From Tricharina praecox (Eukaryota): a stretch of DNA of 64,000 nucleotides. Below, one piece after another: positions 1 through 51,191 of this stretch. Both the position numbers and the translations under genes were made by a program. How positions within the stretch are numbered: position 1 is the first letter of the stretch; each line of letters starts with the position of its first letter. The notes beneath the pieces are model-generated. The model was not told where the DNA came from. It saw only the letters and a list, made by a program, of their open reading frames with translations, and ran no database searches. The DNA lies in the NCBI RefSeq assembly GCF_024521635.1, contig NW_026250413.1, forward strand, positions 496,001-560,000, written 5' to 3'.

Positions 1-1150
1 ACGGATCACCGCTTCCGTCCGAACTCTATCACTGGACCAGCTGGAGCCTGGAGCGGCCGAGAGATAGGCTCCAATGCGCCATGGAAAGACTAGAAAAGCT
101 ACTCCTGGAGAAAAAAAAAACATGCCCGCCATGTGATAAGGTATGCTACACGCATAGTTGGGGTTGTTCAGCCCCACCACCCAGACACAACTACATGTGA
201 AATTCTGGGCCATTGGAGCAGGGCCGCCAGCTATTCACCAGTTCTTATAGAGTAGTATCGCGCCACAATACACACGTCAAGATAAGCTTTTCGGCTGAAC
301 GAAACGGGTAACGGCTATGTGCTAGTAACTACTCGCTTGTTCGGGACACCTTCTCTTTCCCAACGTCCTGTGATCATCCACAGGACCGCTGGGTTGTACC
401 ACCAACTACGTCTCGTTGCTGAGCAAATGCTAATCACAGCTTCCGCAGGTTTGGGTTTGTATAACCACCGCCGCACCCGCAAATAGACACTGCCGGTACA
501 TACTAAAACTACTTCCCGGGAAACTGGGTGTGGAGGTCGGCTTTGTCACTGGGAACTGCTGAACATGTGTCAAGTCCGATGGGCTCAGATGCGGAACTGC
601 CAGGTCCGAACGGCCTGGACGTGGCCGGAAAAAAGCCATCCTCCGCACTGATGGCAATGTGGTTCGGGGAAACCGTAATATCCAAAGTTTTTGCACGACA
701 ACAAAGTTCCCCGGGTTTATAATATCTATATAATGTATATGCACTACGAACGGCACATCTACGGGCCAAAAGTCTGACCAGGAGAACGACGAAACCCCCA
801 AGCTTCTGCCAGCAATCACTCGCTGCTACATACCATGATAACAAATAGGTAGTAGCCCGAGCAAGGAAAATGAACCTATCGTAACTCCCAGTCTCCCACA
901 GCCAAATGGGACTATCTATATGTATTGTACAGATTACACAAGTATTAGAGAAAGGGATCAAGAATGCGGCAGACCGAAAAACGCCACAACATGTTTTCTA
1001 CTCAACAATAGTGACCACGGCAGAACAACATATGGATGTAAAAGGAAACTGGCATTTCCCTCAGAAAAATGAAATACGGTAAACGAGCCCACCAGACGCC
1101 GAAGAGCAAACAAAATCCTCTGCAATCCACCACTCAAACGCTCCACTGAC

Positions 1151-3975
1151 CTACGGCGTACGTTCGTCCCCCGAGTCGTAATTTGAGCCCGAATTTGGCG
1201 TCTCCACCTTTTTGCTATCGGCAACGACGCACATTGGGCACACCCAGTTCATGGACCACCGGGTGACCTGGTAACACGAGCGATGAAACCACCGCGTGGA
1301 ACAACTCTGCAGGTTCACGTTAGCTGCTTGGTGGTGGTGGTTAGGCGTGCAGGATCTGGAAAAAATCTCACCTTTCCGCGGCAGAGCACCATCTGCGTCC
1401 GATCCCACGGTCCCTTACAAATGCAGATGCCGAAGGGGGACGCCGTTTTATCTGCCAGTGCTTTGGCTGCGAATTGCTTCACTTTGTTGGCCTGGCCGAG
1501 TTGACTCGCCGATAGCAGGTCACTTTCGGCATCGACATCGATCGTATCCCCGCGCGTTACACGCCCCGGTCTCCGCATGCTTGACCGCCTCCGGTTCGCC
1601 ATTGCCACCGGCGATGGCGGCGGCGAAGGACTCGGCTCGTCCAGCACATAGGGGCCTTTGAGTCCGACACCGCACTCGGTCTTCCCCGCCGACGACCAGT
1701 TGTCCTTGCCGCCCTTGACGACTTCCATCACCACGCGCAGGCACTCGGCATCGATTGTGCGGTACTGGATTTGGTTCAAACAGTGCTTCCAGAATTCGAC
1801 AAAAAGTGGCCCGCTGCAGAGAAGTTCCCGGTGTTTCTTTGCGAAGCGGTACACCGAGGGGCCGAGGTGGGACATGCTGGGTATTCTGTTTTCTCGTTAA
1901 ATTCATTCAGTCTCAGTCTCAAGAACCCTCGGAACGCAAAACCATGCAGAGGAGTTTACCGTTCTTCGAACATGTGCTTATCCCACAACTTCATGAAGGT
2001 GTGCTCAGTCTTAGCTATGTCTTCGAAATCACAGATCGTCTGCCATGGAGGGGTCAGTAAGCAGGACTCCAAACAACATCAACTTCACAAGCTCCCAGCA
2101 GAAAACCACGTATTATGGTGACACCTGCCGACAATCCCCAACTGGCGGGATGGTTGAAGTTCACTTCACGGTTTGTCTGTCACAACCCGGCCGTCCAACG
2201 GACAACTTCAGAGAATTTGAGATTTGCCAACACTCTCCCACTGCCATTGGACAGGAATCGCCGCCAAAAGACTACACCGACTACGAGATTGGTACACACC
2301 TCTTCGTGCTTTCGAAACAACCATTCTTCATCGACGTCATCGTCGCTGTCACTCAATACCTCCCCAACCTCAACGTATCGTTTGGACACGGTCCGCACGT
2401 AGACCAGTCCCTTCTCTGTATGTCGAGGCTTCTTCACCAGAAACCTTCTCTTTTCCCTCTGAGTAACATCACGTATATCGTTCCAGTCGAAATGCCTCTT
2501 CATTCCCGCCGGTTCGGGGAATTCGGGGCCTGCAACTGGGCGGTTGGCCGCAACAGTGCCTTTCCTCTCGTTCATCCAACTCCAATCACCCTTCAGTATC
2601 CTGTTGACATCAAATTCTCTGGTTGGCCTGACCCAGGTCATTATTCTGTGGTCCGGGGTGTGGTCACTAGCCCTGCTATGTGTCGTGTCCCGGGCTAAAT
2701 CTACGACAACTTTGATATACAGGTCGGCGTACTGGTCGCCGCTGCGCAAACCCGGCTGCGGCTTCCTGGACGTGACCTTGAAGTGAAACAGCGCGTGGGC
2801 AGTAACAAAATGAAAGTGCAAGTATTTCACAGAAGGGAACTGTCGTCCATCGCATAGGCAACAACCGAATCCTGGGGTGGTAAACGTGTGCTGACCTTTC
2901 GAATCCGGCGGGCCAAACGTACTCCGTCCGTTCCTGACTTCGGCGACGAAAGTGTAGCAAGTCAGTATGGTATTGAAACTCGACGCTGCTTCAAGAGCCC
3001 TTCCGTCCGAGCCCGGAGTCGCTTGTCTCTTAGGTTTCTGCTGCCGTAGTAGCAAACGCTTCCTCGGATTCCGCCATCCAGTCTCTATCACTACACTCAG
3101 ATGGGCGCTGTTCTTGCCGACCACTCCTGCCGACCTGAAGAAAACTCTGGTCGGAGGCGTGTTGCTGGGTGGTTTGAGCCTATGGGTTTCGAACCATACG
3201 ACGACTTCAACGTTCTTAGCGTTACGCCCGAAGCCCGGGTCTCCCGTATGAAGGGGTGGCCATGTGCTCGCATGGTCAACGGCGGATATCGCGAGCTCGT
3301 AACGGTATCTATCAGCTACTCTGAATTCTGGCTTCCCGTCGTCGCTCTCGATCGTTGCGCGCAACTTGCTGATCCCCAAAATGAACCAATCATCCATGTC
3401 TACTGTGGCCGAGTCCTCGGTGTCGTATGTGATGGTGCCCATCTCCGTTTCACAATGTAGCTGTTGCGTGTAAGAGATATCGGCTGGCGTTGTGCCGTCC
3501 TTGAGGTACCAGACCGTCAATTTGACAATACACCGAAACGACATCGGACCCGACGCTGCCTCTTCCACGAGATCATCAGCACTTCCGCCACTCCACCCCA
3601 TCAAGCCGAACAGGAAACGTTACGGGTAGATGTGGCTGCGCTGTTCCTCGGGGCGGAGGAGGTGCGTTTTACGGCGACGACATTGATTTTGAGTCTCGCC
3701 TCGTCCTTTGGCGGCTGCAGTTTGTTGCAAATCTCGGCGATGGTTTCCCCGCGTGGCCGCTGGACTTCAGGGGCGGGTTTCCTCCTCTGCCGACTCGAAG
3801 CCCCGGGCTCTTGGGCGTCCCAGCTGGCCTCGTGCGTGGTCGCGTTCGCTTTGAGAACCGCATTGATGTTCCGCGGCAGGAACACTCGCTGCCGGTAACA
3901 GTACTGCTCCCGGTAGAAGGTGATGTTGCCCGTAAACTTTCGCCGTGCCGTCTCGTTGAACATCGGTGGAGGCAT
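1151..3975 (-). CDS. SUZ12: SUZ12-like Polycomb (PRC2) subunit: C2H2 zinc finger + VEFS box + C-terminal PHD finger, 5 exons
   Basis: Zn finger CCLCDGRQFPSVKYLHFHFVTAH. VEFS box SDSDDDVDEEWL..DFEDIAKTEHTFMKLWDKH is built across introns 2040-2299 and 1886-1959. Intron 1307-1371 joins CICKG..MVLCRGK to SCSTRWFHRSC..WVCPMC. First intron lies near 3556-3622. Confidence 0.85.
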
Positions 3976-4259
3976 GGCTCGGCGGGCCCTGACGTGTGGA
4001 ACTAAACAATCGAGCGGGTGAGTAAGTGGGGGTGTGCACGCCGTGTCTGCATTCGTTAGCCAGAGTCGGCCAAGAAGGAAGACTCAATGGGGGAGGGGAC
4101 ACGCGCGCATACCTCGGTGGATGGGACTTTGTCGAGCAGTGTGAAGTTTAAGGACAGTCGTAGTCGCTGGGTCTACTGGAGGGGCAGGCAATTCGCGGAT
4201 TTCGGGTTCTGCGGGACCGGGAAGAAGTTGGAGGAGCTGTTAAGTTTCGGAGTGGAAGT

Positions 4260-4355
4260 TTTCGTCGTGGTCGTGGTCGTCTTCCGTGGTCGTGGTCGTC
4301 TTCCGTGGTCGTGGTCGTCTTCCGTCGTGGTCGTGGTCGTCTTCCGTCGTCGTCG
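4260..4355. repeat. Minisatellite of 19-22-nt units (cttccgt[cgt]ggtcgtggtcgt)
   Basis: About 4-5 near-identical units seen directly, upstream of the SUZ12 start. Confidence 0.85.
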
Positions 4356-5052: not shown

Positions 5053-5814
5053 TCACCCAAGCCGATGCAACCTCGCAATACGCAGCCATTCCTCATCCGC
5101 ATCACTCGGGACCTGGAAATGGCCGCCCAGGCGACGACCGTCGCCGACGAAGCCCCTGCCGTCGATGGGCTCGTTGGGCATCCTCACTTGCGGGGGATTG
5201 TTGATGGTTGCGGGGTTATTGCCGCCGCCGTAGCCTGGTCTTCTACCTGGAGGGCCACGACGGGGTGGTGCTGCTGCTGCTGGTGGTAGGACCGGTGGAG
5301 CCCGGCCACCAGCCCGGGGATGCTCGCGGTGATGGTCCCATCCTCCCAGAGCCTGCGGACGCCGACCATGGCCGTGGTCGTGGTCTTGATGGTGGCGGCC
5401 ATCTCCCTGTCTCTCCGGCTGGCGATCATCACCCTGCAGGGACATAAGCAAATAATACTGATCCTTAAGCCCCTTTAGATATCCGTGGAAATCCGCACCA
5501 TGCCTTCCGAAGAGATTATGCGTCAGCTCATGCAGGAGGGTGCCCAACAGGTCCTCCTCAGGCCTGAACTGGTTTATCCCGCGGTGGTTGTTCTTGCGCA
5601 GGCCGATGCAGATCCACCAGCCCTGGCCGTAGTTGCGGCCCAGGAGACGCTCCTCTGGCTGTGGCAGGAACTCGGTTAGGTGCTCGACGAAGAGACCACG
5701 GGATATCATTATCGGCTCGACGATTCGCGCGAGACGCGTGAGGAGGGCTAATGCCTCCCCGGCGTTATGCAGGTGCGGCATCACGGTTATATGGCCGAAG
5801 ACGTTGCGCAACAT
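5053..5814 (-). CDS. Wss1-like WLM-domain zinc metalloprotease, copy 1 (intact, with SHP-box-like motif)
   Basis: LARIVEPIM, LTEFLP..LLGRNYGQG..ICIGLR, TLLHELTHNLFGRHGADF (HExxH..H); C-terminal FVGDGRRLGG. Confidence 0.88.
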   Translation of the reverse strand: MLRNVFGHITVMPHLHNAGEALALLTRLARIVEPIMISRGLFVEHLTEFLPQPEERLLGRNYGQGWWICIGLRKNNHRGINQFRPEEDLLGTLLHELTHNLFGRHGADFHGYLKGLKDQYYLLMSLQGDDRQPERQGDGRHHQDHDHGHGRRPQALGGWDHHREHPRAGGRAPPVLPPAAAAPPRRGPPGRRPGYGGGNNPATINNPPQVRMPNEPIDGRGFVGDGRRLGGHFQVPSDADEEWLRIARLHRLG

Positions 5815-6750
5815 TGTGTGGGTGGTTTCCCAGCTGGGTTCGCAGTGCTCGTTATTGGAAACTAGATGTAAGTGAAGGGGTTGAGTTTCTTCTGGTCCTT
5901 GATCTGGTGTGAGGTATGTATCTGTCTTTGTTCAGTGTGATTTTGAAGTCAGCGTGTATTGTGAGGAGAAGAAAAGGGAAGCCGTGGGTGACCGGCCCTG
6001 CTTATAACCATATGGGCTTCTTTAAATATGGCACTCGGCCAGAGCACTTGAATCTTGCGGCGTGGATCTTGGACCTTCCCGCCCATTCCAGGTATCTTGA
6101 AGAAGAAGCTGCGGTACTGCTTTCGCTGCCGGATGCAGTCGGATTCTTCACCTCCATCCTTGGAGTGCTCCGGAAGTTTTGGAATTCTTGCCCGTTTCAC
6201 TGCCGAGGCCCTATACCGCTCGGCAGTAGGGATAACTAACAGCGCACGCACTGCGCGTGACCTTGCGGGCACGCGACGTACATAGAAAGGCAGGTGCACC
6301 GTGCTCGAAGTATGTATCAGGTAGTTGCCTACTACCTGCCGTTGCCCGGATACGACCGGCGAGGGAAGTTAGGTCTCCCAGGTATGTAATTTAGTAGTGA
6401 GCCGACCAACCACTGCCAATCACCCCGCCGTCACTCGCAAACGGCGCTCTTTGCGATGTTGGCGCATATGTTGCAGTGAAGTAACCACAGACGTTGAGCA
6501 AACGCGCCACCGTGCCCACTGCCGCGCTACCCCATACCTACCATATGGAGCAGTGTACTAAAGTCAAAAGCATTATGGCAGCCATATATGAGGGCGATTT
6601 TGACACAACACTCTTGACGAAAAAATACTAATGTATTATTACTTTAAAATGAGACTGATGATTGCACACGATATCGATGTGGCCCATAACTTAGTTACAG
6701 CAGCTTGGTATATCATAACCGCGAATCAGCGTCAGCCATCCGATTCCGTA

Positions 6751-7414: not shown

Positions 7415-7918
7415 TTACCAATAGTACATACCATCATGGTCCCGTCCTCCGGGCACCTGCGGACGTCGCCCAGGGTCGCGGTCGCGGTCTTGGTGGTAGC
7501 GGCCGTCTCCCTGTCTCTCCGGCTGGCGATCATCACCCTGCAGGGACATGAGCAGATAATACTGCTCCTTCAGCCCCCTTAGATATGCGTGAAAATTCGC
7601 GTCATGCGGTCCGAAGTGATTATGCGTCAGCTCATGTAGCAGGGTGTCCAGTAGATCCTCCTCAGGCCTGAACTGGTTTATTCCCCGGTGGTTGTTCTTG
7701 CGCAGGCCGATGCAGATCCACCAGCCCTGGCCGTAGTTGAGGCCCAGGAGATTCTCTTCTGGCTGTGGCAGGAACTCCGTGAGGCGCGACACGAAGAGAC
7801 CACGGGATATCATTATCGGCTCGACGATTCGCGCGAGACGCGTGAGTAGGGCGAACGCCTGATCGGCATGAGGCAGGTGAGGTATCACGGCTATATCGCC
7901 GAAGACGTTTCGTGACAT
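7415..7918 (-). CDS. Wss1-like WLM metalloprotease, copy 2 (C-terminally shortened, 167 aa)
   Basis: MSRNVFG start aligns with the copy 1 ATG; LLGLNYGQG and TLLHELTHNHFGPHDANF are intact; the tail is deleted relative to copy 1. Confidence 0.82.
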   Translation of the reverse strand: MSRNVFGDIAVIPHLPHADQAFALLTRLARIVEPIMISRGLFVSRLTEFLPQPEENLLGLNYGQGWWICIGLRKNNHRGINQFRPEEDLLDTLLHELTHNHFGPHDANFHAYLRGLKEQYYLLMSLQGDDRQPERQGDGRYHQDRDRDPGRRPQVPGGRDHDGMYYW

Positions 7919-8644
7919 TTTTGGGTGGTTTTCTTGCTGGGTAGTGGTGATCGTTGTGGAAACTAGATTGATGTGAAGAGGTTGAGTTGCTTCTTGGCCT
8001 TTGATCTGGTATGTATCAGTCTTTGTTCCGTACGTCAAGTTCAGCGTGGATAGGGAGGGTAGGAGGAAGAAAAGGGAAGCCGTGGGAGACCGCCCTGCTT
8101 ATAACCCTCAGAGCTTCTTCAAAGATGGCACCCGACCAGAGCACTTGAATCTTGCGGTGTGCATGATTCCGAGAGTCTTGGAATTCTTGTCTGTGTCACT
8201 GCCCAGGCCCCATACCGCTCGGGAGTAAAGCATAACTGACTAGCAGCGTACTCTGATTCGTGACCCTGAGGGCACGCGACGTACATAGAAAGGCAGGTGC
8301 ACCGTGCTCGAAGTATGTATCAGGTAGTTGCCTACTACCTGCCGTTGCCCGGATACGACCGGCGAGGGAAGTTAGGTCTCCCACTGCCAGGTATGTAATT
8401 TAGTAGCGACCCGACCACTGCCAATCCCCCCGCCGTCACTCGCAGACGGTGCTCTTTGCGATGTTGACGCATATGTTGCAGTGAAGTAACCACAGACGTT
8501 GAGCAAACGCACCACTGTGCCCACTACCGCGCAACCGCGCTACCCCATACCTACCATATGGAGCAGTGTACTAAGGTCAAAAGCATTATGGCAGCCATAT
8601 ATGAGGGCGATTTTGACACAACACTCTTGACGAAAAAATACTAA

Positions 8645-25416: not shown

Positions 25417-28400
25417 CTAGTACGCAACCCTACTCCGCATGTCCGCAATCTTACGCTCCACATCCCTTACTGTCCTATCCAGTTCTCCTGCGATCACCGC
25501 CTTCCGGTCTCTCGGCAGTAGCGAGAAGCGCTCGCAAAGATCTCCATCCACGACTCCCTTAACCGGAACATAGTATCCCCGGTAGATGAGATGGTCCCTA
25601 CCGGTAAGGGGCGCATCGTCGGTCCTCATGTGCTGCTCAAGCGTCTGGAAAAAGTCGACATCCTCCTTGCTGACGAACGGCACCATGAGTCCGATTGTAC
25701 CCTGGAGACCAGTCCACACGATTGCCTCGCGGCCTCCCGCCACAAGCTGCGCCTTCTGCACACTCGTCGGAATGTCCTGTGTAAAGAAATGGGCCATGAG
25801 CTCGAGTCGGTTCGGAGTACCCTGCAGGTAGGAACGTTCGTGCAGAAGGTGACCACCGGCAGGGTCTTCGTCGGATTCTTCCGAGGCCTTCTTCGGGCAT
25901 CGCAGGATCCAGAAGTTGCCAAACTTGTCACCGCCGGCGACAGATTCGTAGTCGAGCATGTGCGTCGTGGTCGTCCAGCGAGAGATCATGTCATCGGCGA
26001 AAGGGATGATTTTGTTGTCTTGGTACTTGTATACCGCATACGTAACCGACTCCTGGATATCTGAGATGATGATTCTCGAACCCTGGGTTTGAAGGCCGAC
26101 AATCAGGTTGGCGGCGATGTCAGCCTGTGTCTTTCGGAGGAGTTGTCGCATTCCCAGGTCGTAGATTTTGAGACTCTTTCCGGTACCAGCAAGGAGACGT
26201 CCCTGGAATCCTAATAGCGCAAGCGCTGGCTCGTCGGTCTTAGTCTTGTGAACGAACTCCAGACCCTTTCCGTCGTCAAGGAATCGGTAGATGTGGATGA
26301 ATCCGCACTGAGACTTCCGTGGGACAACCTCGGAATTCTTTCCAGTGCCAACCACAAGGAAGGTTTGGTCGTCCTGGGAAGCAAACGGGACGATGGCAAT
26401 ACTGTACGCTGCCTCGTTCTCAGTCATCTCAATCTTTTGTGTGACCTCCTTGTTCAACGGATCAATAACGGAGATGCACGATGCCCAGTGCCCTTCTCCT
26501 CGCGAGTAACCAAAGTCTTCGGCGGGAAGGTCGTATGCAGCTCTATCGCCGTTCGGGGCACCATTCGCCTTCTCAATCAAACTCTGCTTTGTGGCGAGGG
26601 AGAGGGTGTTGGGATCCGCTTCAACCGTGTAGAAGTAAGGCTGATCGGGGTGCTTGATCATTTTCCGAGGAGTGTGAGAGAGAGGAATAGTCTCTTGCTG
26701 AAGGTTTTCGGTGAGTCTTTCGACTGCAAAAATCCGCAAGTTCTGGCCCTGAATTCCGACCATTCCTTCCGGACACTGCTCGCTGCTGAAGGTCCAACCC
26801 CATTCCAACGCCGGATAGGTGAGCGGCGTCAGCATGTACTGTCCTCGGCTGTCATTGTAACCTAACCACGGGCGTGAACTCAGGGCCAATACTGCGGGCT
26901 GTCCTTGAACCACTACTGGTGAGATTTTCACCGGCTTTGGTCCAAGGAATCGGGTCCGGGTGTCGGTAAGTTCGCCTGTGATAGTGTCAAGCACGGTCCG
27001 CAGGTAAACACCGCTGTACAATCCGATGTGGAGGTACAACGTAGATGTCTTAGACACTTCGGAGGCAGAGTCCGGCATTGACATGATACACAGCGCCGAA
27101 GGAGCAGATGTCAGAGCCTGTACCGATTTCGACTCCAACGTAGAATCCGGATCCAAGGACAAGATACGAACGGTCGAGTCGTCACATCCAACAGCCAAGT
27201 ATGACGACCGCAACCTCCCCTCAGGCACCTCGCCAAGCGACAGGCACGTTACTGTGCCAGCCATCTCTTTCTTCTCCTCGTACTCGGCAAGCTGGCCATC
27301 CGAGTCCATCTCAAAGTATACGATTTCACCACTGGAAAGGGCCACGGCGACCTGACGGGAGTTGGTCGTCGCCGCCACAATGGATCTGTGTTGCGGAGCA
27401 GGCCACTCGTTAACTCTTCGGTCGGCACGGATATGCCGGATACCTTTGGGGTGGACTTGGAGAAGTCCGTCGTCGCCAAGCTGCTGGACCGCGAGAGTAG
27501 GTGCCGACGACAGAAAGCCGGTGTCTGTCACTTCCTCGACTGTTTCCCCGATGCTCAACACGAGAGTTCCATTATTAAAAGAAAGAATGATATAAGCATC
27601 GAATTCATCACTGCTCGTCAACTTTGTGGTCCAGACGGCACTCGGCACACCTGGAAGCTCCGAAGCCACAATTTCCGTTGTCTCCAATCCGTGCTTCAAA
27701 ATCCGGAAAGTCGAGCGAGCGCCGCCACCACATACCGTGTAGATTTGGGGGGCATCTTCGTCCGTCAAATTCGCAACCTTGCAGTCAAGCAGGGGGTTCA
27801 TGCTGTGCATGGATTCCACCAGGGACAGATTCTCTGGAGCGCGGATTTGGAAATAGCACGGCTGGTATGAGTCCGAGGGGTCAGGCGAAAAATCTTCACT
27901 GTTGAATTCCGCCTCCTCGTCATCATCGCCCAACTTCTCGAACTGGTAAAAGTTACTATAAAGCGTCTGGTTAGCACCAATCCTCACACTCCGGATGAGA
28001 TGATACGTACTGGTTGCCCGTTTCCGAGGCCACAAACAGGAAACCGCTCTTGAGAATAAGCAAACTCGTGGCCACTGGTACGGTATCGAAGTATTTGATT
28101 CTGATTCGCGAAACTCCGATGTCGTCGTCGTAGTCTAGTGTAACCTTGAACAGATCGCCATCCTCCGTCTGCAGCAGAAAGAAAAAGGCGCCTCTCATTT
28201 TGTGCATGACACCCGACACAATGGTTCGTTTCCGGTTCGGATCTTCGGTAGCACCTCTCCTCCTCGGAATTGGCACTCGCGAAGCCAGACGTCCCACGTG
28301 CCTGTAGTAGATGCAATCCTCCGCGCACACCAAGACTCCGGATGGGCCATCAGCCCCCCCGGGAACTTGGAACAGCATGTTTGCACTCCTGTCCACGGGG

Positions 28401-29589: not shown

Positions 29590-31223
29590 ATGCCTCTCCC
29601 TACGCGTGCCGTGAGGACAGTGTGTCGGCTTCCCATACGGTCATCTCTCTCATTTCCACGGATTCCGACGCAACGAGCCGCCACGTGTCCCCTCATCTTA
29701 CGCCGGAAGCTCCATGGCGGCCAACAGCAACAGCACCGACAATCCTTTTTCAATAGACTCGGCGAAGCGCTCAGAAACACGAAGACGGAATGGTACGCGA
29801 TTCCAATTGGTGTCGGCATAGGTGTCGTGGGCTTCACACAGATACGGAAGAACCATTCGCGTAGCAATGAGGATGCCAGTGGCGGGGAAAGGTTACTTGA
29901 GGAGAAGCAGATTCGCCCCATGGGCTCATGGTATTTTCCTCCTACGTTGGCTGTTCCCTACCACACCGGCACTGACTACGGTATAGGCAAGTCCAAATTC
30001 TCTCCACACTCCCACTCAAGGCCCTCTCGTACTATTGGGGCCGCTTCAACGAGATCCCACTTCCTCGTTTCCTCCGTGCACCAGGCTTCAAGCTGTACGC
30101 ATGGTTTTTCGGCGCCAATCTCGAGGAGGTAGCGGAACCCCTCGACCACTACAGAAACCTCGGCGAGTTCTTCTACCGTCAACTCAAACCTGGAAGTCGT
30201 CCGATCGACCCACGCTCCAGCTCTGTGGTCTCCCCCGCCGACGGAAAAGTCCTACAGTTCGGTGAAGTGCGAGCTGGTGGTGAAGTGGAGCAAGTGAAGG
30301 GAATGACATACTCGCTGGACGCGCTGCTTGGTGCACAAGGTGGGCCGATCCACAGCGAAGGTGAATCTCCGAATGCGGCCGCCCTCGTAAAAAAGAAGCT
30401 GCAGGGCAAGGGCGTTGAGCCTGGGGAAACCACAGCACGCTACGGAAAGGGCGGTGACAGCGGCCCCAATGCTACCGTGTACAATTCGGAGGAAGAATTC
30501 GCCAACGTTAATGGCATATCTTACACACTTCCGTCACTACTTTCCGGAAAACCTTCCTCGAAGCCATCCCCGGCCACCCACGATGCGTCCCTTCCCGCCT
30601 CTACCAGCGCCGCCCTCGAGGTTGGCACGGAAGTCGCTAAGCCCTCGGGAACAAGCTGGTTCGCCACGCCGCAAAAGCGTCTCTTCTTCTGCGTCATCTA
30701 TCTCGCCCCCGGTGATTACCACCGCTTCCATTCTCCTGTCTCGTGGGTCGTCGAGCAGCGCCGACACTTCGCAGGAGAACTCTACTCGGTATCTCCCTGG
30801 TTGCAGTCGCGACTGAAGGATCTTTTCGTCCTCAACGAGCGCGTAGTGTTGCTCGGACGCTGGCGACACGGAATGTTCTCGATGACCCCCGTCGGCGCGA
30901 CCAATGTAGGCAGCATCATAATCAATTTCGATCGTGAGCTGCGGACAAACAGCTTCACCAAGGATCCCACCGAGGCAACCGCGAAGAACGGATTCGCCGA
31001 GGCCACATACAAGGGTGCATCTGCATTACTGGGTGGCCATCCCATCACCAAGGGAAGTGAGATTGGAGGCTTCCAATTAGGTAGCACCGTTGTTTTAGTC
31101 TTTGAGGCACCAGCGGTGGCGGCCGATCCAGATGGTCCGCCAGTTCGGGGAGGTTTTAGATTCTGTGTGGAGCCAGGACAAAGGGTAAAGATGGGTGAAG
31201 CATTGGGTGTTGTCGAGATGTAA
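29590..31223 (+). CDS. PSD1: Mitochondrial phosphatidylserine decarboxylase 1
   Basis: LGEFFYRQLKPG, VSPADGK, IYLAPGDYHRFHSP, VGATNVGSI and the FQLGST autocleavage motif; intron 29931-29986. Confidence 0.96.
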
Positions 31224-41410: not shown

Positions 41411-43030
41411 GGCAGTGGCTGTTTTGATCAGTCCTACCCATCCGAGAGCATGAGGTGATCTTGTACTCTACTCAAGAGGACCAGAAGCTTCCTCCCACAT
41501 CCATTGTTCAGATGTCGAACAAAGGACCCCGCGCGGGTCCCATGGATTGTACATATCCGAGTGCTGATTTGTGATGCAGTCGGGGAGCCAGGGGCCGGAC
41601 CGCATAGCGCTAACCGCCAGTAGCATGCATAATGCTGCTGGTAGCAGCGGCACCCATAGGTCTGGAATCAGGTGCGGACCACGCCGCTATACTGCACTCT
41701 ATGTTGGCTACCCGGACCGGCATGTACTGGTAGATACGTTGGTTGGCTCGTCCGACAGGTGTCTCGTCTAGGCAATGCGTCGTCAAAGAGCTTGGCCAGA
41801 CGTATGCGTTCTTTCAGCTCGTCATACGCGGGCCTGTCAATACTTCAGAATGCGTCTCAAGATAGTGAAGTGACAAATTTAGACGGTACCTACCTCATAC
41901 AGTAGTACTCAATGAGGGTTCGGAGCAACTGGCCTAAAGCCATTCCTCCAAATCGCTCGCGAGAAATTCCATCCTCTAGTGCGTATCTCCAAACATTTCC
42001 ATCGTGTTGTTTAGGGTATTGGGCTGCTTGAATCGGTACCTTAGGAGTATATATCTCTGTAGCATGTGGCTCTCACGGTGCCTTGGCTGCTGCCTCCCGG
42101 GCCGAACCGCGTATAGGTACGCACCAAGCCCACGATCGAGTGAGAGTCGCGGAAAAAATCCTAAAATATATGCACTATAGCAGTTATATTGAATTCGGCT
42201 CTTTGCATTGTATGTGCCAATACACAAACGAACAATAAACAGGCCATGACAAAATCAACCTGGCAGTTGTGGAAGGAGGAACTGGAAATCGAATGCGTGG
42301 ATTTCTGATGAAAGAAACTGCAGTACGGTGGCCACCGAACGGAGGTAGGTACGCGATCGACATATAGTGTATAAAACTTAGGCAGCAATTCCGCTCCATA
42401 GCCAACCATATCGCGCGATCCTAGAAGCGGCCAGCCATCGTAACAGCGCCGGCCGCGGACCTTGGGGACACAGTATGCAAATAGTTGGCCTCCGCATGTC
42501 CCTATTCTCGCAAGTCGGAGCCGATTCAACGAAAAGACGGAAGTCGTCCGCTCTAGGCATCATCCGGTGATTCGGATCATCTGGAATGGCGAAATTCCAT
42601 TCTGTGACGGAGTGTGCAGGTGCCGTGGTCCATGGCGGTGAGTCGTCCTGCCATCACTTTGTTGCCGCCGAAGGGAAACTGGCGCTAAACTGCATTGAGC
42701 TGCTGCAAACAACCAGCAACATGCTCACGGCGACAACACATCAAACCATAGCTCCCCCATCTCCTCCATCGCTCTTCCCTCAACAATCAACCTTCCCGCC
42801 TCTACATCACATCTAATCCCCCCGCCATCCCCACATTCACACATCCCCCCACTATCCACACGCTCTGACATTGCATCGCATTCTCTATTCTCTGCTTTGC
42901 ATCCCCGACCGATTGCCGCCCGCCCGCTTACACCGTAAGTCATCCGCTGCAAATCTCGTTTACATCATCTCCCGAGAACTGCCACTGAAAATTCTTCCCG
43001 CAGCCGTGCAATCTCTACGCAGCAACGAGA

Positions 43031-46000
43031 ATGGCAGACCCCGGGTTAGAGGGTCTCTTCGCGAACCTCCGGAGGCAGGCCACCCAGAGTCCGCACCAAA
43101 TGCAGCAATCTCCGCAGCCGCAACAGCAGCCGCCGCCGCAGCAACAGCAAACCTCGTACACTTCCCAGACTCTTCCCATGGAATCGGTCCAGCAATCGCC
43201 TTTCCATCCGTTCCCTTACCCACAACACCAACAATATCATTCAGAGTCTCCTTCATACGCCCCTCCGATGCCACAGCCTCACTCTTCCACACCGGGGTTC
43301 CCTTCGAGCAACGAGAACGGCTTTCCTGGTTATTACCAGCCACCGCCCCAGCAGGCCCAGCAGGGTATTCCGTCGAATCATTCTCCTGCAATTCCAGCCT
43401 CGTCTCAGCAGCCGTACAATATGCCCATGTCTCCCTCGGCGGGCGGCGCCGGTGACAACAGGAATAGTCTCTTGTCGCTTCTGAAATTCTCCCAAGCAGT
43501 CCCGCCATCCGACTCTCCTACGTCTGAACACGCGCCTTCTCCACAGGGACAGAGAGGGCCAACTCCTCCCCGCCCTGCTGTCAATTCGCCACCTCCGGTC
43601 TCGCAGCCGCCGTTGCCTCATAATAGATCGATTTCAGCTTCGGACCTCGTCGCGTCGCTGTTCAACAACGCGAGTAGAGAGAACATAGCCTCGTCGGCGA
43701 GCTCGAGCCCTGTACATCAACGCGCGCCTACCCATCTATTGCAGCAGCGCAGCGCGACGGCGGAATCTGTTCCTCACAACAAGTCTCCAGTCAACCCACA
43801 GGACTTGGTTTTCCAGCTTCTAGGGCGCACGAAACCGGCGCAGGAAGAGTTGGGTCCTCCTCCGGCGACCCCAAGTCAAGAGGCAGCGTCAAACGCAGAG
43901 CAGAGTCGCGGGGAGCAGCCTTTGCTGAGGTCATCCTCGAGCGTGTCTTCGATGCCGCCGCCGCCGCCGAATTACACTTCAGCAGGTCCATCTCACGGCT
44001 TACCATCTCTTCCCGCTGAAGGTCCTCCGCCTAGCCATACTCCTAGCAAGGGTCTATTCACCTACGTCAATCCTTTCGAGCAACTCTCGGCTACCAGTCC
44101 ACGGAATAAGACTCCTAAGAGCGCAACGCCAGGTCCGCTGGCTACCAGGAAGAGCACGTTGGGAACCAGTGAGATGAGAGCCGAAGATTTCCCCTTGCCG
44201 GGATCGACTTCAGTTTCCCCTCCTCCCCCTGCTCCGGTTGAGGCTGAGGCTGCCATGGACGCTTCTACTCTGGACCAGGTGAAAGAGCGCGAGCAACAGC
44301 TGATGGAGCAACTTGGTCAACACGCAGAAGAGTACGTTCCTTCGCAGCAGTCACCAGAGGAGACTCGTGTCGAAGACGGACCTCAGTCTGAGCCGTCCCA
44401 GCAATACGAGGGTAGTGTCAAGGATGCTGTAGTCGAGGTTGAGCAGCGAAAGAACGACTCTCCATCCGTCCTTCCCGAGGTACAGATGCAAGTGCAGGAG
44501 CACGTTGACGGAGAAGAGGATGGATACGAGTCTGCTCCGGAAACCCAAACCATCGAAGTTTACAACTTCCCGATGAAGCCCTTTTCATCCATCACTATTA
44601 TCCCCACCGCCATTAAGAGGCCCAAGTATCCGTCATCCAAGATTTCCGATGTTGCCAGGATGGCTCGAACCTTCGATCAACTTGACAGGAATCTAATCGC
44701 CGCTTCTCACCAATATATCGCCTATGCTCTCAGCAAGAGCAATGGACGCGGTGGAATCAGAATCCTCAGGCAATACGATGGACTTGACAGGGTTCTCATG
44801 AAGGATAGCACCGACCGAACCTTCAATGTTACGGTTGGAAAGAGTGAGAAAGTGCTGGGTACGGGTGTTTCGGGCGCCGTAGTCTGGGTCGACCTGCAGG
44901 CAGATTTCGATGGCGATAATTGGGACAGCATGTTCGTGTTTCCACCGAGCGAAGAGCAAGGACAGAGCAATGGCGTGCTGAAGTCACGTGCTCGAAAGAC
45001 TTCGCGGCACCACGATGCGTTTGCTATCGGACGTGGCAAAACCATCAGCATCATTCACGCTCCCACAGCCAGGGCGTATGCCGAGGGTCGCAAGGGCAAC
45101 GTTGTGGCGTCGAAGAAGTATCTCGCAGATCACACCCGCACCATTGACACTGGGAAGGCCTCCAAAGATTTCGCATTCTCCGACGACGACTCGGTCATCA
45201 TTTCCATCGATAAGGCCGGAAAATTGAAGCTCTGGGACGTGTTGGATCTGCTCAATTTTACCGAGAGCGATGCCTACGACATTGCCCAAACTCCTGAACC
45301 TCCGATGGTTCTGTCTACTCCCAATCTTGTGTTCTCTGCAGTTGCCGCCGGTGAATCTTACCGAGCAACTTCAGTTATGTTTCTTGACAAGTTCCGACCG
45401 TACTTGAAGTGTTTGGCCCTGAGATACGTCATTGTCGGAATGAAGCAGAACCACACTTTCCAGCTATGGGATCTTGCTTTGGGACGACCGGTACAGGAGA
45501 TCAACTTCCCTCAGGAGAGCGACACGGATGCACTCTGCTCCGTTGCATACCATCCACTCTCGGGAATCATCGTTGTAGGCAACCCGACGAGAAACTCGAT
45601 CTATTTCATCCACCTCTCGGCACCGAAGTACAACCTTCCTCCTATGTCGCAGGCTCAGTACATCAGGGGTCTTGCTGACAAATCGTCCGTAATCCCGAAA
45701 CCCGATGCAACTGCGATTCTTAGCGGGCTACGCGAATATTCATTCGCTTCCAAGGGTCAACTGATGAGCCTCGATATTCTGGACTGTGAAAGCGACCCAC
45801 AGGATGACAATCCAGTTCTCTTCGAACTCTACGTCGCTCACAGCAAGGGAATGACGACTCTGAGCGTTTACAAGGAAGATCTGGGTTGGGACACAGACAG
45901 CAGGGTCAAGAACTCGGTCGACGCGATTGCAAAAGGCGTCTGCGCCATGACCAGCCTGCCACCGCCCCCTCTGCCTGAGCGAGACGACAAGAGCGAGAGC

Positions 46001-47645
46001 ACCGAAGCTTCTGGCCAAGGCCTTAAGCCCAAGTCTAGCAGAACGAAGTCGCGAAGTGTCAGCCCAGCAGCAAGAGCTCCGGAAAAACTTGACGTAGAGG
46101 ACAAAGCCGCTGCCGCCAGCAGCGCTGGAAAGAAGAAAAAGAAGGACAAGGCAAGCGCAAGCGCGTCCGCGGCAACCACGTCTGGTACTGACGAGCCTCA
46201 GGCGGAGAAGGCAGCGAGCGCTAAGGCTAAGGCACCCGGTGCTACTGCCCCCGCTCCTCAGAGCGTCGAACAGGAGCTTGGTGTTTCTTCCGGGTTCCTC
46301 GATCGTGAGGTCAAGCGAATCGAACAGACAGTCTCTGCCGAGTTCACGAGGGTGATCAACAACGAATTAGAACAGCTCTGTAAGTATCTAGTGCGGGATA
46401 AGGATTATTCATGGCTAATATATGGAGTAGATCGCCGATTTGATGACGACAAGAGGATCCAGCAAGCTGCCGGCGACGCCAAGCAGGATGCCATCTTGCG
46501 TCTTCTGTCCAGCACTCTGACGGACAACGTCGACCAAGTCATCTCTCGCATTGTCATGAATAACATCCAGACACAAGTTGTGCCGGCGATTGCAGACGTC
46601 ACTGCCACCTCGATCAACCGCGTCTTGGGAGAGACTTTGACCAGATCCTTGGCTGTCTCACTGCCGCAGGAGCTTCGCGCGATTGTTCCGAATGCTGTGA
46701 ATCAGTCCTTGGCTCAGCCCGACTTGCTGAACAGGGTTACCGAAAACCTTTCACGTCCCCTGACTCAAGTGGTTGAGCGCGAACTCACCCACTGCATCCA
46801 TAACACAATGGTTCCCGCCTTTCAGAAGTTGGCCATCGAAACTGCCCAAAAGGCTGTTACTGAGGCCGAGAGGAAGCACAATGAAACCATTACCGCGCTG
46901 GAACAAATGCACAGGAACGACTCCAGGAAGATTGATCAACTCATGGCGACCGTTCAGCAAATGGCCGAGACCATGAACAACATGGCCAAGAACCAGGCTG
47001 AATTCCAAGAGCAGGTCCGGCAAGCCCAGGTGGAGTACTATGAACACGGTGGGCAAGCCATTGAGCCGGAGAAATCTGCTGAGCAGCTCGAGGCTGAAGA
47101 AATTGAGGATCTTCTGAGGAGTGGGAAGTACGAGGATGGAACCATAAAGGTACTTTGAAGCTCTAGTCGGGTTGCTGTAGTTATGATGCTAATCATGTTT
47201 CCACAGTGGTTGCAATCTAAGGAACGTCAAGCCGAGCTTTTCGACGAGGTTATGGTCCGCTACAGATACGACTTCCTCCCTAACCTCAGCCAGCTGGTTC
47301 TGCTCTCTGTTTCTGCCGCGGTCAGCGTCAAATTCGAGCACAAAGTGATGGAGCGTTTGAGCTGGCTTGAAGGCGTTCTGGCAGTCCTCGATCCCATGGT
47401 AAGTCGGAATGCAGACAGCTTCCCAGACGAACTCCCGCTAATCGCAGATTTAGGATCCTGAGATTCATGAGATTTGCAACAGAATCATGGTTGTCGTCGT
47501 TCAGAGACTGGAACAACTATACATGAGCACTGCTGAGACCTCTGAGCATCAGAACCAGCAAATCAGTCATCCTATTCTCAAGAAGATTCCGGCAATCGCC
47601 CGTCGCGCCCGGGAGCTCAGCGCAATGGCTCATCACCCGCGTTGA
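43031..47645 (+). CDS. EDC4/Pdc1-like mRNA-decapping scaffold (low-complexity N-terminus, WD40 propeller, coiled coil)
   Basis: GLFTYVNPFEQL, FPMKPFSSI, FDQLDRNLIAAS, DKAGKLKLWD, QLWDLALG; introns 46380-46430, ~47150-47206 and ~47399-47453; stop at 47643-47645. Confidence 0.8.
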
Positions 47646-49711: not shown

Positions 49712-51191
49712 ATGGCCGACTCCGACTCCGATTACGTTGGCTCCTCCGATAACGAAGCCGGCATTTCCACGTCCAAAAAAGGGCGCGACGGTCGCAAACG
49801 CGAGAAAGGCAAATCACGAGAGAAACCACGCGAGCGATGGGAGGAGGTTCAGCGAGCTTGGGACGTGGGTCTCGGTGACGATATCGAATCGACAGTAGCG
49901 GGGCTGTTGGAAGCGGGCAAGAAGCGGCGGTACCCCCTCCCTTTCCTTCTTTAGCAGACTCTGCCACTAAACCCGAGTCCGTAGCCTCCTTAAGGACGAG
50001 ACACCACTGCAGCGAGGTATCATTCGGCATCTTGTTCTGATTCTAGACCTGTCTATTGCTATGGCGGAGAAGGATTTGCGGCCTACCCGATATCTCCTCT
50101 CGATCCGGTATGCGTGCGACTTTGTCCGCGAGTACTTCGAGCAGAATCCAATTTCACAGATGGCGGTGGTGGGCATGCGTGACGGACTTGCGCTGCGCGT
50201 GTCAGACATGTCGGGGAACCCAGTCTACCACATCGACGCGATTGAGAAGCTACGACTCGACGACCCGTTGGGCTCGCCGTCACTGCAGAATGCCCTCGAA
50301 ATGGCGCGTGGAGCTCTCTTCCATACACCGTCGCACGGCACTCGGGAAATCGTCATCGTCTACGGCGCCTTGTGGTCTGCCGACCCCGGTGACATCCACA
50401 ATACCATACGATCGCTGGTCACCGATAAAATCCGCGTCGCCATCGTTGGTCTTGCAGCGCAGGTCTCGATCTGCAAGGAGCTGGTCAAGCTCACGAATGC
50501 GGGCGATACCGGTAACTACGCGGTGGCGCTACATGAAGTCCATTTCCGCGAGAAGCTGCTGGAGGCAACCACTCCTCCCGTCACTCGGTCCCAAAAAATG
50601 TCGGCAAACGGCCTATTGATGATGGGGTTCCCTTCACGTATAGTGGAACGTACGGCGTCGCTCTGCGCCTGCCATTCAAACGCGACGAAGGGGGGCTACC
50701 TCTGTTCGCGCTGCAACACAAAAGTGTGCCAACTGCCCTGCGAGTGTCCATCCTGTGGCTTGACGCTTATCCTGTCTACACATCTGGCACGGTCGTATCA
50801 CCACCTCTTCCCGCTACGCAACTGGCGTGAGGTAAACTGGGTAGAGGCAAGAAAGAGCACGAACTGCTTCAGCTGTCAGACGGCCTTCCCAGTGCCTCCG
50901 GATGAGGGCACGAATGCGCCCGCAAAAACACAGCACAACACAAGTGTCAGTTCGCGCTATAGGTGTCCGGAATGCGCCCAGCACTTCTGTGTGGATTGCG
51001 ATGTGTTTTGCCACGAAACATTGTACAATTGTCCCGGCTGCCAGAGTCTATCTGATGGCGCCAAGTTGGCCGCGACGAGAGGGAGGAGGAAGAAGGTGCC
51101 ATCAGCTGCAGCTCCAGTGGACGGGGAGGCTCGAGCTAACGGTGGGAATAATAACGTCATGGCGGCGGGGGAACCGATGGTCATTGATTAA
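49712..51191 (+). CDS. SSL1: TFIIH subunit Ssl1/p44
   Basis: TPLQRGIIRHL, EYFEQNPISQ, PSLQNALE, LILSTHLARSYHHLFP, C4 and RING-like C-terminus; intron 49930-49984. Confidence 0.96.

What the first reader, a model, noticed from the sequence alone, without database searches (positions are those of the whole stretch)
1151..2350. SUZ12-like PRC2 subunit fused to a hidden, spliced C-terminal PHD finger
Seen in sequence: removing canonical intron 1307-1371 (gtgag..gctaac..cag) after the VEFS box gives CICKGPWDRTQMVLCRGK|SCSTRWFHRSCYQVTRWSMNWVCPMC, a complete C4HC3 PHD that the ORF track splits in two. Established: animal and plant SUZ12 end in VEFS, and PHD readers (PCL, VIN3/VRN5) join as separate accessory subunits. 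The Met before Cys3 and the Trp of WFH are two of the ING-type H3K4me3 cage residues, but the cage Tyr is Ile here. Inference: a PRC2 with a built-in histone-tail reader. The architecture may already exist in domain databases, but I know of no functional study.
Basis: partly seen in the sequence, partly recalled or inferred. Interest (0 to 1): 0.72.

Follow-up and report, generated by a model that had tools for sequence, protein, structure and literature searches.

The report
Fungal SUZ12 with spliced ING-type PHD
This is the SUZ12 subunit gene of the Polycomb complex PRC2 of a cup-fungus-like soil fungus, whose tail carries a real, intron-split PHD zinc finger of the ING kind; the fusion is common in filamentous ascomycetes and already in databases, but nobody seems to have tested what the finger does.

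Summary
On the minus strand, ATG 3975 to stop 1151-1153, lies a five-exon coding gene. Spliced contigs of two runs from two studies skip exactly 1307-1371 and four other GT..AG introns, while a DNA run reads straight through. The 787-aa product aligns end to end with Pezizomycetes SUZ12 homologues (44% to Sphaerosporella brunnea). It has a full VEFS box at residues 505-618. It ends in a C4HC3 finger at residues 719-762, split by the intron after Cys3.

A profile of 35 fungal SUZ12 fingers hits ING/Yng PHD fingers first in the PDB (E 3e-12 to 7.5e-8). A model of a relative's finger superposes on ING PHD-H3K4me3 complexes.

The fusion is not rare. Of 150 SUZ12 representatives, 39 carry the whole finger and 29 carry half of it, mostly in models that end near the intron position. 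UniRef already names some of them PHD-type, and a 2021 preprint notes the domain in Magnaporthe Suz12. I found no functional study.

What is new here is modest. The finger is ING-type. The splitting intron also occurs in two close unnamed relatives. The methyl-lysine cage Trp is kept mainly in the Pezizomycetes-type fingers, including this one. Histone reading remains an inference.

The parts
1151..3975 (-). SUZ12-orthologue coding region: ATG at 3975, stop at 1151-1153, 787 aa after splicing
   Evidence: Spliced ORF computed from transcript-defined exons. It aligns end to end with P0002 of Sphaerosporella brunnea at 44% identity, window residues 1-762 against 1-766 of 767.
4047..4112 (-). 5'-UTR intron, 66 nt, GTATGC...CAG
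   Evidence: Skipped by the X2 and X3 contigs. It lies upstream of the ATG.
3562..3623 (-). Coding intron 1, 62 nt, GTAACG...AAG
   Evidence: Skipped by the X2 and X3 contigs; DNA run X1 reads through up to 3661.
2771..2896 (-). SUZ12-type C2H2 zinc-finger region
   Evidence: Weak Pfam Zn_SUZ12 match: E 0.24, residues 242-283 of ORF 2183-3619. Homologues give the same family at E 1e-2 to 3e-8.
1726..2401 (-). VEFS box (protein residues 505-618), interrupted by introns 2040-2299 and 1886-1959
   Evidence: An HMM built from 19 Pfam-delimited VEFS boxes of non-Pezizomycete homologues matches the spliced protein over positions 1-114 of 115 (125.5 bits). The unspliced ORF pieces match only thirds of it. 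Pfam VEFS-Box scores E 8.9e-4 on the 40-aa exon piece.
2040..2299 (-). Coding intron 2, 260 nt, inside the VEFS box
   Evidence: Skipped by the X2 and X3 contigs. The junction sequence matches the uninterrupted homologue sequence.
1886..1959 (-). Coding intron 3, 74 nt, inside the VEFS box
   Evidence: Skipped by contigs of X2, X3 and X5, which come from three studies.
1372..1425 (-). First half of the PHD finger (Cys1, Cys2, Cys3; residues 719-736), at the end of exon 4
   Evidence: Family HMM hit on the spliced protein at residues 716-763: 48 bits, E 1.9e-14.
1307..1371 (-). Coding intron 4, 65 nt, phase 0, GTGAGA..GCTAAC..CAG; it splits the finger between Cys3 and Cys4
   Evidence: Skipped by the X2 and X3 contigs and contiguous in DNA run X1. 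Relatives L002 and L004 have an intron at the same codon boundary.
1229..1306 (-). Second half of the PHD finger (Cys4, His, Cys5-7; residues 737-762), at the start of exon 5
   Evidence: Pfam on this half alone gives PHD_2 at E 0.022 and PHD at E 0.15. Also.
1151..1228 (-). C-terminal tail of 25 aa plus the stop codon
4262..4355 (.). Tandem repeat (19-nt unit, about 4.5 copies) just upstream of the gene, or within its 5' UTR
   Evidence: The X2 transcript contig has 95 further letters beyond window position 4200.

Best explanation
Shown: the locus encodes the SUZ12 subunit of PRC2 of an unnamed Pezizomycetes-like fungus. From N to C terminus the protein has a SUZ12 N-terminal region with a C2H2 zinc finger, a VEFS box (505-618), a roughly 100-residue low-complexity linker, and a C-terminal C4HC3 PHD finger (719-762). 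The finger only exists after the 65-nt intron is spliced out. It belongs to a finger family found at the C terminus of many Pezizomycotina SUZ12 proteins, and its nearest solved relatives are the ING/Yng PHD fingers.

Inferred mechanism: the VEFS box holds SUZ12 in the catalytic lobe next to EZH2-SET and EED (established for PRC2). The linker therefore tethers an ING-like histone H3-tail-binding module close to the active site. In this organism and its Pezizomycetes relatives the finger keeps a three-residue pocket: Trp at Cys2+4, Met at Cys3-3, Trp at His-2. I think it most likely binds a methylated lysine on a histone tail, with H3K4me3 the first candidate. That would let PRC2 itself sense the state of the nucleosome it is about to modify.

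Which ligand it binds, and whether binding recruits, retains or restrains PRC2, is not shown.

The confidence of 0.55 is for the inferred histone-tail-reader mechanism. The shown part (gene structure, SUZ12 identity, ING-type PHD finger) I hold at about 0.95.
For: Gene structure:
- Five GT..AG introns are skipped by spliced contigs of X2 and X3. DNA run X1 is contiguous.
- The spliced ORF is 787 aa.

SUZ12 identity:
- 44%, 37%, 35% and 34% identity end to end with homologues of Sphaerosporella, Geopyxis, Choiromyces and Morchella (names).
- The VEFS HMM gives 125.5 bits over its full length.
- Pfam VEFS-Box is found in the homologues at E down to 9e-23.

Finger:
- All eight ligands are invariant in 35 of 35 aligned fungal SUZ12 fingers.
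- The window scores 48 bits against a family HMM built without it.
- In the profile-versus-PDB search, the 20 best distinct sequences are all ING1-5, Yng1/2, Pho23 or Png2 (E 2.9e-12 to 7.5e-8). The next hit is NSD2 at 5.7e-6.
- The AlphaFold model of the Geopyxis finger (mean pLDDT 75.4) matches ING1, ING2, ING4 and ING5 PHD-H3K4me3 complexes best: rmsd 1.7-2.1 A over 48-51 columns, TMt 0.70-0.77, probability 1.00.

Pocket:
- Trp at His-2 occurs in 10 of 41 fingers: the window, all 7 Pezizomycetes-type sequences, and 2 others.
- All 8 Pezizomycetes-type fingers have an aromatic residue at Cys2+4 and Met or Val at Cys3-3.
- The same residues are kept in L002 and L004.
- A read passage states that W238 and M226 of ING2 contact K4me3.

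Context:
Against: - No binding data exist for any SUZ12 finger.
- Pfam's own PHD model does not reach its cutoff. Four of the 120 homologues scanned score 16.5-17.7 bits against a cutoff of 24. The window's second half alone scores 12.6 bits.
- The ING cage Tyr position is Ile here.
- The positions matching ING2 D230 and E237 (their H3R2 role is recalled, not read) are both Arg here. His-3 is Arg in 6 of 8 Pezizomycetes-type fingers. This argues against a canonical ARTK4me3 binding mode.
- 31 of 41 fingers lack the cage Trp altogether and have D, E, A, G or other residues there. Whatever function is common to the whole family cannot depend on that Trp.
- The Foldseek E-values are weak (3.7e-3 to 1.8e-2), as expected for a 50-residue domain.
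- I could not fold the window's own spliced protein with the tools.
- Whether this organism has EZH2 and EED could not be checked, because no genome is held.
Confidence: 0.55

Rival explanations
1. The finger reads an unmodified histone H3 N-terminus (H3K4me0), or some other non-methylated ligand. It would steer PRC2 to chromatin that lacks active marks rather than sensing a methyl-lysine.
For: In 31 of 41 SUZ12 fingers the cage Trp position is D (10), E (7), A, G or another residue. PHD fingers without an aromatic cage are known H3K4me0 readers, for example BHC80, AIRE and KDM5B PHD1 (passage read). A function shared by the whole family is simpler than a switch between lineages.
Against: The window and all 7 Pezizomycetes-type relatives conserve Trp at His-2, Met or Val at Cys3-3, and an aromatic residue at Cys2+4. 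Conserving these is unexpected if no methyl-ammonium pocket is needed.
Confidence: 0.2
2. The finger is a structural or docking zinc module with no reading of histone marks. It might stabilise PRC2, bind another subunit or accessory protein, or bind DNA or the nucleosome.
For: Only the eight zinc ligands and one Trp before Cys7 are invariant or nearly invariant across 35 fingers. Mean column identity is 29%. The putative ligand-contact positions vary widely between classes. By recall, some PHD fingers bind non-histone partners.
Against: The specific and strong similarity to ING-family fingers, which are dedicated H3-tail readers. The pocket residues are conserved within Pezizomycetes.
Confidence: 0.2
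3. The finger is not made: the intron is normally retained, or the last exon is unused. The protein would end shortly after Cys3, as many database gene models do.
For: 26 of 150 representative models contain only the first half of the finger, and 24 of those end within 40 residues of it. Contigs cannot exclude a minor retained-intron isoform.
Against: The assembled transcript contigs of two studies splice the intron precisely. The second half keeps all its ligands in frame in the window, in L002 and L004, and in 39 full-length representatives. Intron lengths of 65, 59 and 58 nt are not multiples of three, so read-through shifts the frame. Many of the truncated models come from metagenome ORF calls that cannot splice (sources).
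Confidence: 0.03

Closest known systems
SUZ12 / Su(z)12 / EMF2-VRN2-FIS2 family (PRC2 core subunit; Pfam VEFS-Box PF09733, Zn_SUZ12 PF23320)
   Same: C2H2 zinc finger followed by a VEFS box. End-to-end homology to annotated fungal VEFS-box proteins.
   Different: By recall, animal and plant SUZ12 end at or shortly after the VEFS box. The two Lipomycetes homologues examined have no finger (P0043, VEFS 705-818 of 837; P0060, VEFS 661-774 of 868). This protein continues for about 170 residues and ends in a PHD finger.
Pezizomycotina SUZ12 with a C-terminal PHD-type finger (for example Choiromyces venosus L873DRAFT_1815578, Elsinoe ampelina BDZ85DRAFT_319478, Alternaria panax G6011_00838, Magnaporthe oryzae MoSuz12)
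   Same: Same architecture and the same finger family. The window is an orthologue.
   Different: The window and its Pezizomycetes relatives keep the ING-like cage Trp (the WFH motif) and an 11-residue Cys2-Cys3 loop. Dothideomycetes, Lecanoromycetes and Xylonomycetes members have D, E, A or G at that position and a 12-residue loop.
ING/Yng family PHD fingers (ING1-5, Yng1, Yng2, Pho23), which are H3K4me3 readers
   Same: They are the best sequence-profile and fold matches. The spacing of ligands is the same from Cys3 to Cys5. The Met (ING2 M226) and Trp (ING2 W238) positions are kept, as is the Trp before Cys7.
   Different: The host protein is a PRC2 subunit, not an ING subunit of a histone acetyltransferase or deacetylase complex. 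The cage Tyr position is Ile. The positions matching ING2 D230 and E237 are Arg (the role of these two residues is recalled). There is one extra residue between Cys2 and Cys3.
Polycomb-like (PCL/PHF1/MTF2/PHF19) and plant VIN3/VRN5 accessory subunits
   Same: They bring PHD fingers to PRC2 (table read in PMC7000746; the plant proteins are recalled).
   Different: They are separate polypeptides with Tudor plus two PHD fingers, or PHD plus FNIII. Here a single ING-type finger is fused in cis to the core subunit.

Membership tests
SUZ12 (PRC2 core subunit) | VEFS box | tested here: met
   An HMM built from 19 Pfam-delimited VEFS boxes matches residues 505-618 of the spliced protein (125.5 bits, positions 1-114 of 115). 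Pfam VEFS-Box scores E 8.9e-4 on the 40-aa exon piece. The region aligns with the Pfam-called VEFS of P0002, residues 508-630, E 3.1e-19. The Pfam library could not be run on the spliced protein itself.
SUZ12 (PRC2 core subunit) | SUZ12-type C2H2 zinc finger upstream of VEFS | tested here: inconclusive
   Pfam Zn_SUZ12 gives only E 0.24, 11.6 bits against a cutoff of 28. Most fungal homologues are also below the cutoff. The region aligns with theirs.
SUZ12 (PRC2 core subunit) | Assembles with EZH2/KMT6 and EED and is required for H3K27 methylation | not testable with these tools
   No genome is held for the window, so partner genes could not be sought. There are no experiments.
PHD finger (C4HC3, interleaved two-zinc fold) | Eight ligands with PHD spacing | tested here: met
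   C-x1-C-x11-C-x4-C-x5-H-x2-C-x11-C-x2-C after splicing. The ligands are invariant in 35 of 35 homologous fingers.
PHD finger (C4HC3, interleaved two-zinc fold) | Match to the curated Pfam PHD model above its gathering score | tested here: not met
   Second half alone: PF00628 scores 12.6 bits and PF13831 scores 14.6 bits. Of the 120 homologues scanned, 4 reach 16.5-17.7 bits against a cutoff of 24, and none passes. The spliced window protein could not be given to the Pfam tool.
PHD finger (C4HC3, interleaved two-zinc fold) | PHD fold | tested here: met
   Tested on a homologue, not on the window protein. The AlphaFold model of the Geopyxis carbonaria finger has pLDDT 75.4. All of the listed Foldseek PDB matches are PHD fingers, and the best have rmsd 1.7-2.1 A.
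ING-type PHD (H3K4me3 reader) | Closest sequence relatives are ING/Yng fingers | tested here: met
   The top 20 distinct PDB sequences are all from the ING family, E 2.9e-12 to 7.5e-8.
ING-type PHD (H3K4me3 reader) | K4me3 cage: Tyr before Cys1, Met at Cys3-3, Trp at His-2 | tested here: inconclusive
   The window has Ile, Met, Trp, so 2 of 3 are kept. A conserved aromatic residue sits at Cys2+4, where ING has Ser.
ING-type PHD (H3K4me3 reader) | Acidic H3R2 pocket (ING2 D230 and E237; this role is recalled from Pena et al. 2006, which is not held) | tested here: not met
   The window has Arg at both positions.
ING-type PHD (H3K4me3 reader) | Binds H3K4me3 peptide | not testable with these tools
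   Needs a binding assay.

The most novel reading that the evidence does not exclude
In Pezizomycetes, including this organism, the PRC2 core subunit SUZ12 carries an ING-derived PHD finger that still works as a methyl-lysine reader, using a Trp-Met-Trp pocket. PRC2 itself would then read a methylated histone lysine in cis to its catalytic lobe. The ligand could be H3K4me3, or a different methyl-lysine, since the acidic H3R2 pocket has been replaced by two Arg. The later-diverging Pezizomycotina, which include the model fungi, would have converted the same finger to a cage-less form. That would be a lineage-specific rewiring of how Polycomb senses active chromatin.
Probability: 0.25. Interest if true: 0.65.

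Novelty: new member of a known kind. Interest (0 to 1): 0.4.

Why it matters
How PRC2 avoids or targets particular chromatin in fungi is an open question. Fungi lack PRC1 and most animal and plant accessory subunits. The fungal reviews I read describe SUZ12 as conserved only in its VEFS motif (passage read, PMC7348808). An evolutionary survey of the Polycomb system does not mention the finger in the passages I saw (PMC10638273).

A conserved ING-type PHD fused to SUZ12 next to the catalytic lobe is an obvious and cheap-to-test candidate for a built-in chromatin sensor.

There is also a practical point. The intron, or whatever breaks the models at that place, sits between Cys3 and Cys4. In 26 of 150 representatives only the first half of the finger is present, so domain surveys will under-count this architecture.

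For this window, though, the gene is an ordinary orthologue of a known, database-annotated architecture.

Tried and rejected
- No whole genome is held for the window, so partner genes (EZH2, EED) could not be sought.
- The search for homologous proteins with the 175-aa exon-4 piece and 'longer' lengths found nothing.
- The 'near' and 'longer' searches returned only 9 distinct proteins in all. None was the spliced 787-aa form.
- No listed sequencing run is on record as RNA. X2 and X3 are treated as RNA-derived only because their contigs skip five GT..AG introns that DNA run X1 contains.
- Pfam's PHD and VEFS models on unspliced ORF pieces gave only sub-threshold partial hits. The spliced protein could not be passed to Pfam, structure prediction or the PDB search, so homologues and in-box HMMs stood in for it.
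- I scanned 120 of the 150 representatives with Pfam. P0121-P0150 were not scanned. For them only my own finger HMM and regex were used.
- The regex parse of P0002 is out of register because of an extra Cys. Its row should be read from the alignment.
- Pena et al. 2006 (PMC3190580) is not held. The search for D230/E237 gave only a figure legend naming a D230A mutant.
- Earlier-findings look-ups returned nothing.
- Rejected reading: a chance cysteine pattern. The ligands are invariant in 35 homologues and the intron phase is conserved.
- Rejected reading: the antisense ORF 2015-2698 (+) as a gene. It lies opposite exon and intron sequence of the transcribed minus-strand gene.
Full report
**What is there**

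The finding lies at the 3' end of a minus-strand gene. I laid contigs of four public runs on window 1000-4200.
- One contig each of X2 and X3 (two studies; 0 and 2 mismatches) runs through the whole stretch. Each skips five segments that all begin GT and end AG on the minus strand: 4047-4112, 3562-3623, 2040-2299, 1886-1959 and 1307-1371.
- A contig of X5 (a third study) skips 1886-1959.
- DNA run X1 is contiguous across all five, so the joined form is a spliced RNA and not a genomic variant.
- The runs are not on record as RNA. I infer that they are RNA-derived from the splicing pattern.

Joining the exons gives one ORF from ATG 3975 to the stop at 1151-1153, 787 aa. It has four coding introns and one 5'-UTR intron.

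- It is 65 nt, starts GTGAGA, and has GCTAAC 12 nt before the final CAG.
- It is in phase 0 after the Lys codon that ends at 1372.
- The joined sequence has the spacing C-x1-C-x11-C-x4-C-x5-H-x2-C-x11-C-x2-C.

**Identity of the protein**

- On unspliced ORF pieces, Pfam gives only fragments: Zn_SUZ12 at E 0.24, VEFS-Box at E 8.9e-4 on a 40-aa exon, and PHD_2 / PHD at E 0.022 / 0.15 on the last exon.
- An exhaustive HMMER search with the 479-aa ORF found 211 relatives at E <= 1e-3.
- Of the first 120, most carry Pfam VEFS-Box, down to E 9e-23.
- Named relatives are Sphaerosporella brunnea, Choiromyces venosus and Tuber indicum, and Geopyxis carbonaria, Morchella and Terfezia/Tirmania. S. brunnea is in Pezizomycetes by NCBI taxonomy. 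The class of the other genera is from my own knowledge.
- The spliced protein aligns end to end with them: 44% identity with S. brunnea over residues 1-762 against 1-766 of 767, then 37%, 35% and 34% with Geopyxis, Choiromyces and Morchella. The splice junctions fall in uninterrupted homologue sequence.
- An HMM built from 19 Pfam-delimited VEFS boxes of non-Pezizomycete homologues matches residues 505-618 over its whole length (125.5 bits). Each unspliced piece matches only a third of it.

So the VEFS box itself is cut by two introns, and the gene is a SUZ12 orthologue of an unnamed Pezizomycetes-like fungus. The neighbouring genes are ordinary eukaryotic housekeeping genes.

**The finger**

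I aligned 35 C-terminal fingers from stored homologues. All eight ligands are invariant and a Trp before Cys7 is nearly so.
- The window's spliced finger scores 48 bits (E 1.9e-14 in that small search) against a family HMM built without it.
- A profile of the 35 against all PDB sequences puts ING1-5, Yng1, Yng2, Pho23 and Png2 in the first 20 places (E 2.9e-12 to 7.5e-8). Other PHD fingers (NSD2, PHF2, Pygopus, WSTF, BPTF and more) follow from E 5.7e-6.
- An AlphaFold model of the Geopyxis finger (mean pLDDT 75.4) has ING PHD fingers as its best Foldseek matches. With ING1, ING2, ING4 and ING5 bound to H3K4me3 it gives rmsd 1.7-2.1 A, TMt 0.70-0.77 and probability 1.00, although E-values are only 4e-3 to 2e-2.
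- Pfam's generic PHD model never reaches its cutoff on these proteins. Four of 120 score 16.5-17.7 bits against a cutoff of 24.

A plain Pfam scan would have missed the domain.

**How common is the fusion, and is it known?**

Among the 150 representatives:
- 39 have the complete finger.
- 26 have only its first half, and in 24 of these the model ends within 40 residues of it.
- 3 have only the second half.
- 82 show nothing. Many of these are single-exon fragments.

Named carriers cover Pezizomycetes, Xylonomycetes (Xylona heveae), Lecanoromycetes (Trapelia coarctata) and Dothideomycetes (Elsinoe ampelina, Alternaria panax, and a Dothideomycetidae species).

Two Lipomycetes homologues have no finger. 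P0043 ends 19 residues after its VEFS box. P0060 has a 94-residue tail with no finger hit.

UniRef already calls the Choiromyces, Elsinoe and Alternaria proteins 'PHD-type'. A 2021 bioRxiv preprint on Magnaporthe oryzae says MoSuz12 has C2H2, VEFS and PHD domains (passage read).

Five full-text searches and passages of two surveys (PMC7348808; PMC10638273) turned up no functional work on the finger. The fungal review says SUZ12 homologues differ 'except for the VEFS motif'. Subscription journals and the preprint's supplements were not seen.

**The intron**

In two metagenome relatives (L002 and L004; 65% and 63% identical in the main exon; L003 and L005 gave identical hit tables) all five coding exons are found in the same order. 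The finger is split at the same codon boundary by introns of 59 and 58 nt (GTGAG..ACTAAC..CAG), and all ligands are kept.

P0011's model diverges at the same place. The many first-half-only models end near it. This fits an intron at this position in other lineages too, but I checked DNA only in L002 and L004, and several of the truncated models come from metagenome ORF calls that cannot splice.

**Pocket residues**

I placed residues by their distance from the invariant ligands and matched them to ING through the HMMER alignment.

| Position | ING2 residue | Window residue |
|---|---|---|
| Before Cys1 | Tyr (Y215) | Ile |
| Cys2+4 | Ser | Trp |
| Cys3-3 | Met (M226) | Met |
| Cys3+1 | Asp (D230) | Arg |
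| His-3 | Glu (E237) | Arg |
| His-2 | Trp (W238) | Trp |

- A read passage names W238, M226 and 'Y315' (sic) of ING2 as K4me3 contacts. The role of D230 and E237 in binding H3R2 is recalled. I could read only a legend naming a D230A mutant.
- Trp at His-2 occurs in 10 of 41 fingers: the window, all seven Pezizomycetes-type sequences, and two unnamed others. The remaining 31 have D (10), E (7), A, G and other residues.
- All eight Pezizomycetes-type fingers also have an aromatic residue at Cys2+4 and Met or Val at Cys3-3. L002 and L004 agree.

So this lineage conserves a Trp-Met-Trp half-cage but lacks the acidic R2 pocket. Most other classes lack the cage.

**How it most likely works**

Shown: a SUZ12 with an ING-type PHD tethered by a roughly 100-residue linker to the VEFS box.

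Established elsewhere: VEFS sits in the catalytic lobe. [quoted passage not shown]

Inferred: the finger binds a histone tail near the active site. In this lineage the ligand is probably a methylated lysine, which would give PRC2 a built-in sensor. I put about 0.55 on 'histone-tail reader' in general. Within that I put about 0.25 overall on a methyl-lysine reader specific to the Pezizomycetes-type finger.

Rivals are an H3K4me0 or other unmodified-tail reader (0.2) and a purely structural or docking zinc module (0.2). A finger that is not expressed is about 0.03 and is contradicted.

**Verdict**

The 'hidden by an intron' point is right too, and is a recurring problem in public gene models.

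The architecture is common in Pezizomycotina and already in databases, so this gene is a new member of a known kind.

The functional idea is reasonable, untested and cheap to test. Interest is moderate (0.4).

Noticed in passing
P0011, P0020-P0023, P0025, P0028-P0030, P0033, P0035, P0040 and others (26 of 150 representatives): Public or metagenome gene models of fungal SUZ12 contain only the first half of the finger. In 24 of the 26 the model stops within 40 residues after it, near the place where the window has its intron. Domain surveys will therefore under-count the SUZ12-PHD architecture.
   Followed up: partly
window 2040-2299: The intron inside the VEFS box is 260 nt, four times the length of the gene's other introns (62-74 nt). 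Relatives L002 and L004 have a similar gap of about 266 and 234 nt between the same exons.
   Followed up: partly
window 4262-4355: A tandem repeat with a 19-nt unit, about 4.5 copies and 90% matches lies just upstream of the SUZ12 gene. It probably reaches into its 5' UTR, because the X2 transcript contig extends 95 nt beyond position 4200.
   Followed up: no
window 5056-5931 (-) and 7418-8098 (-): Two neighbouring ORFs both carry a WLM metalloprotease domain (Pfam E 4.5e-29 and 3.7e-31). This is an apparent tandem duplication right next to SUZ12.
   Followed up: no
run X5 on window 1774-1998: A run guessed to be DNA has a contig that skips intron 1886-1959, so at least part of it derives from spliced RNA.
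   Followed up: no
window 25420-28134 (-), 29976-31220 (+), 42989-47155 (+), 49971-51188 (+), 53006-56089 (+), 61683-62621 (-): The rest of the window holds ordinary nuclear genes: an RSE1/CPSF_A beta-propeller protein, phosphatidylserine decarboxylase, an EDC4-like protein, TFIIH Ssl1, CENP-C/Mif2, and a Ras-family GTPase.
   Followed up: no
P0118, P0136 (unnamed Logan/ENA proteins): Two SUZ12 homologues outside the Pezizomycetes-type group also keep a Trp at the cage position, but have C-x2-C and longer loops. Their taxonomy is unknown, so the history of the cage (ancestral or regained) is open.
   Followed up: no
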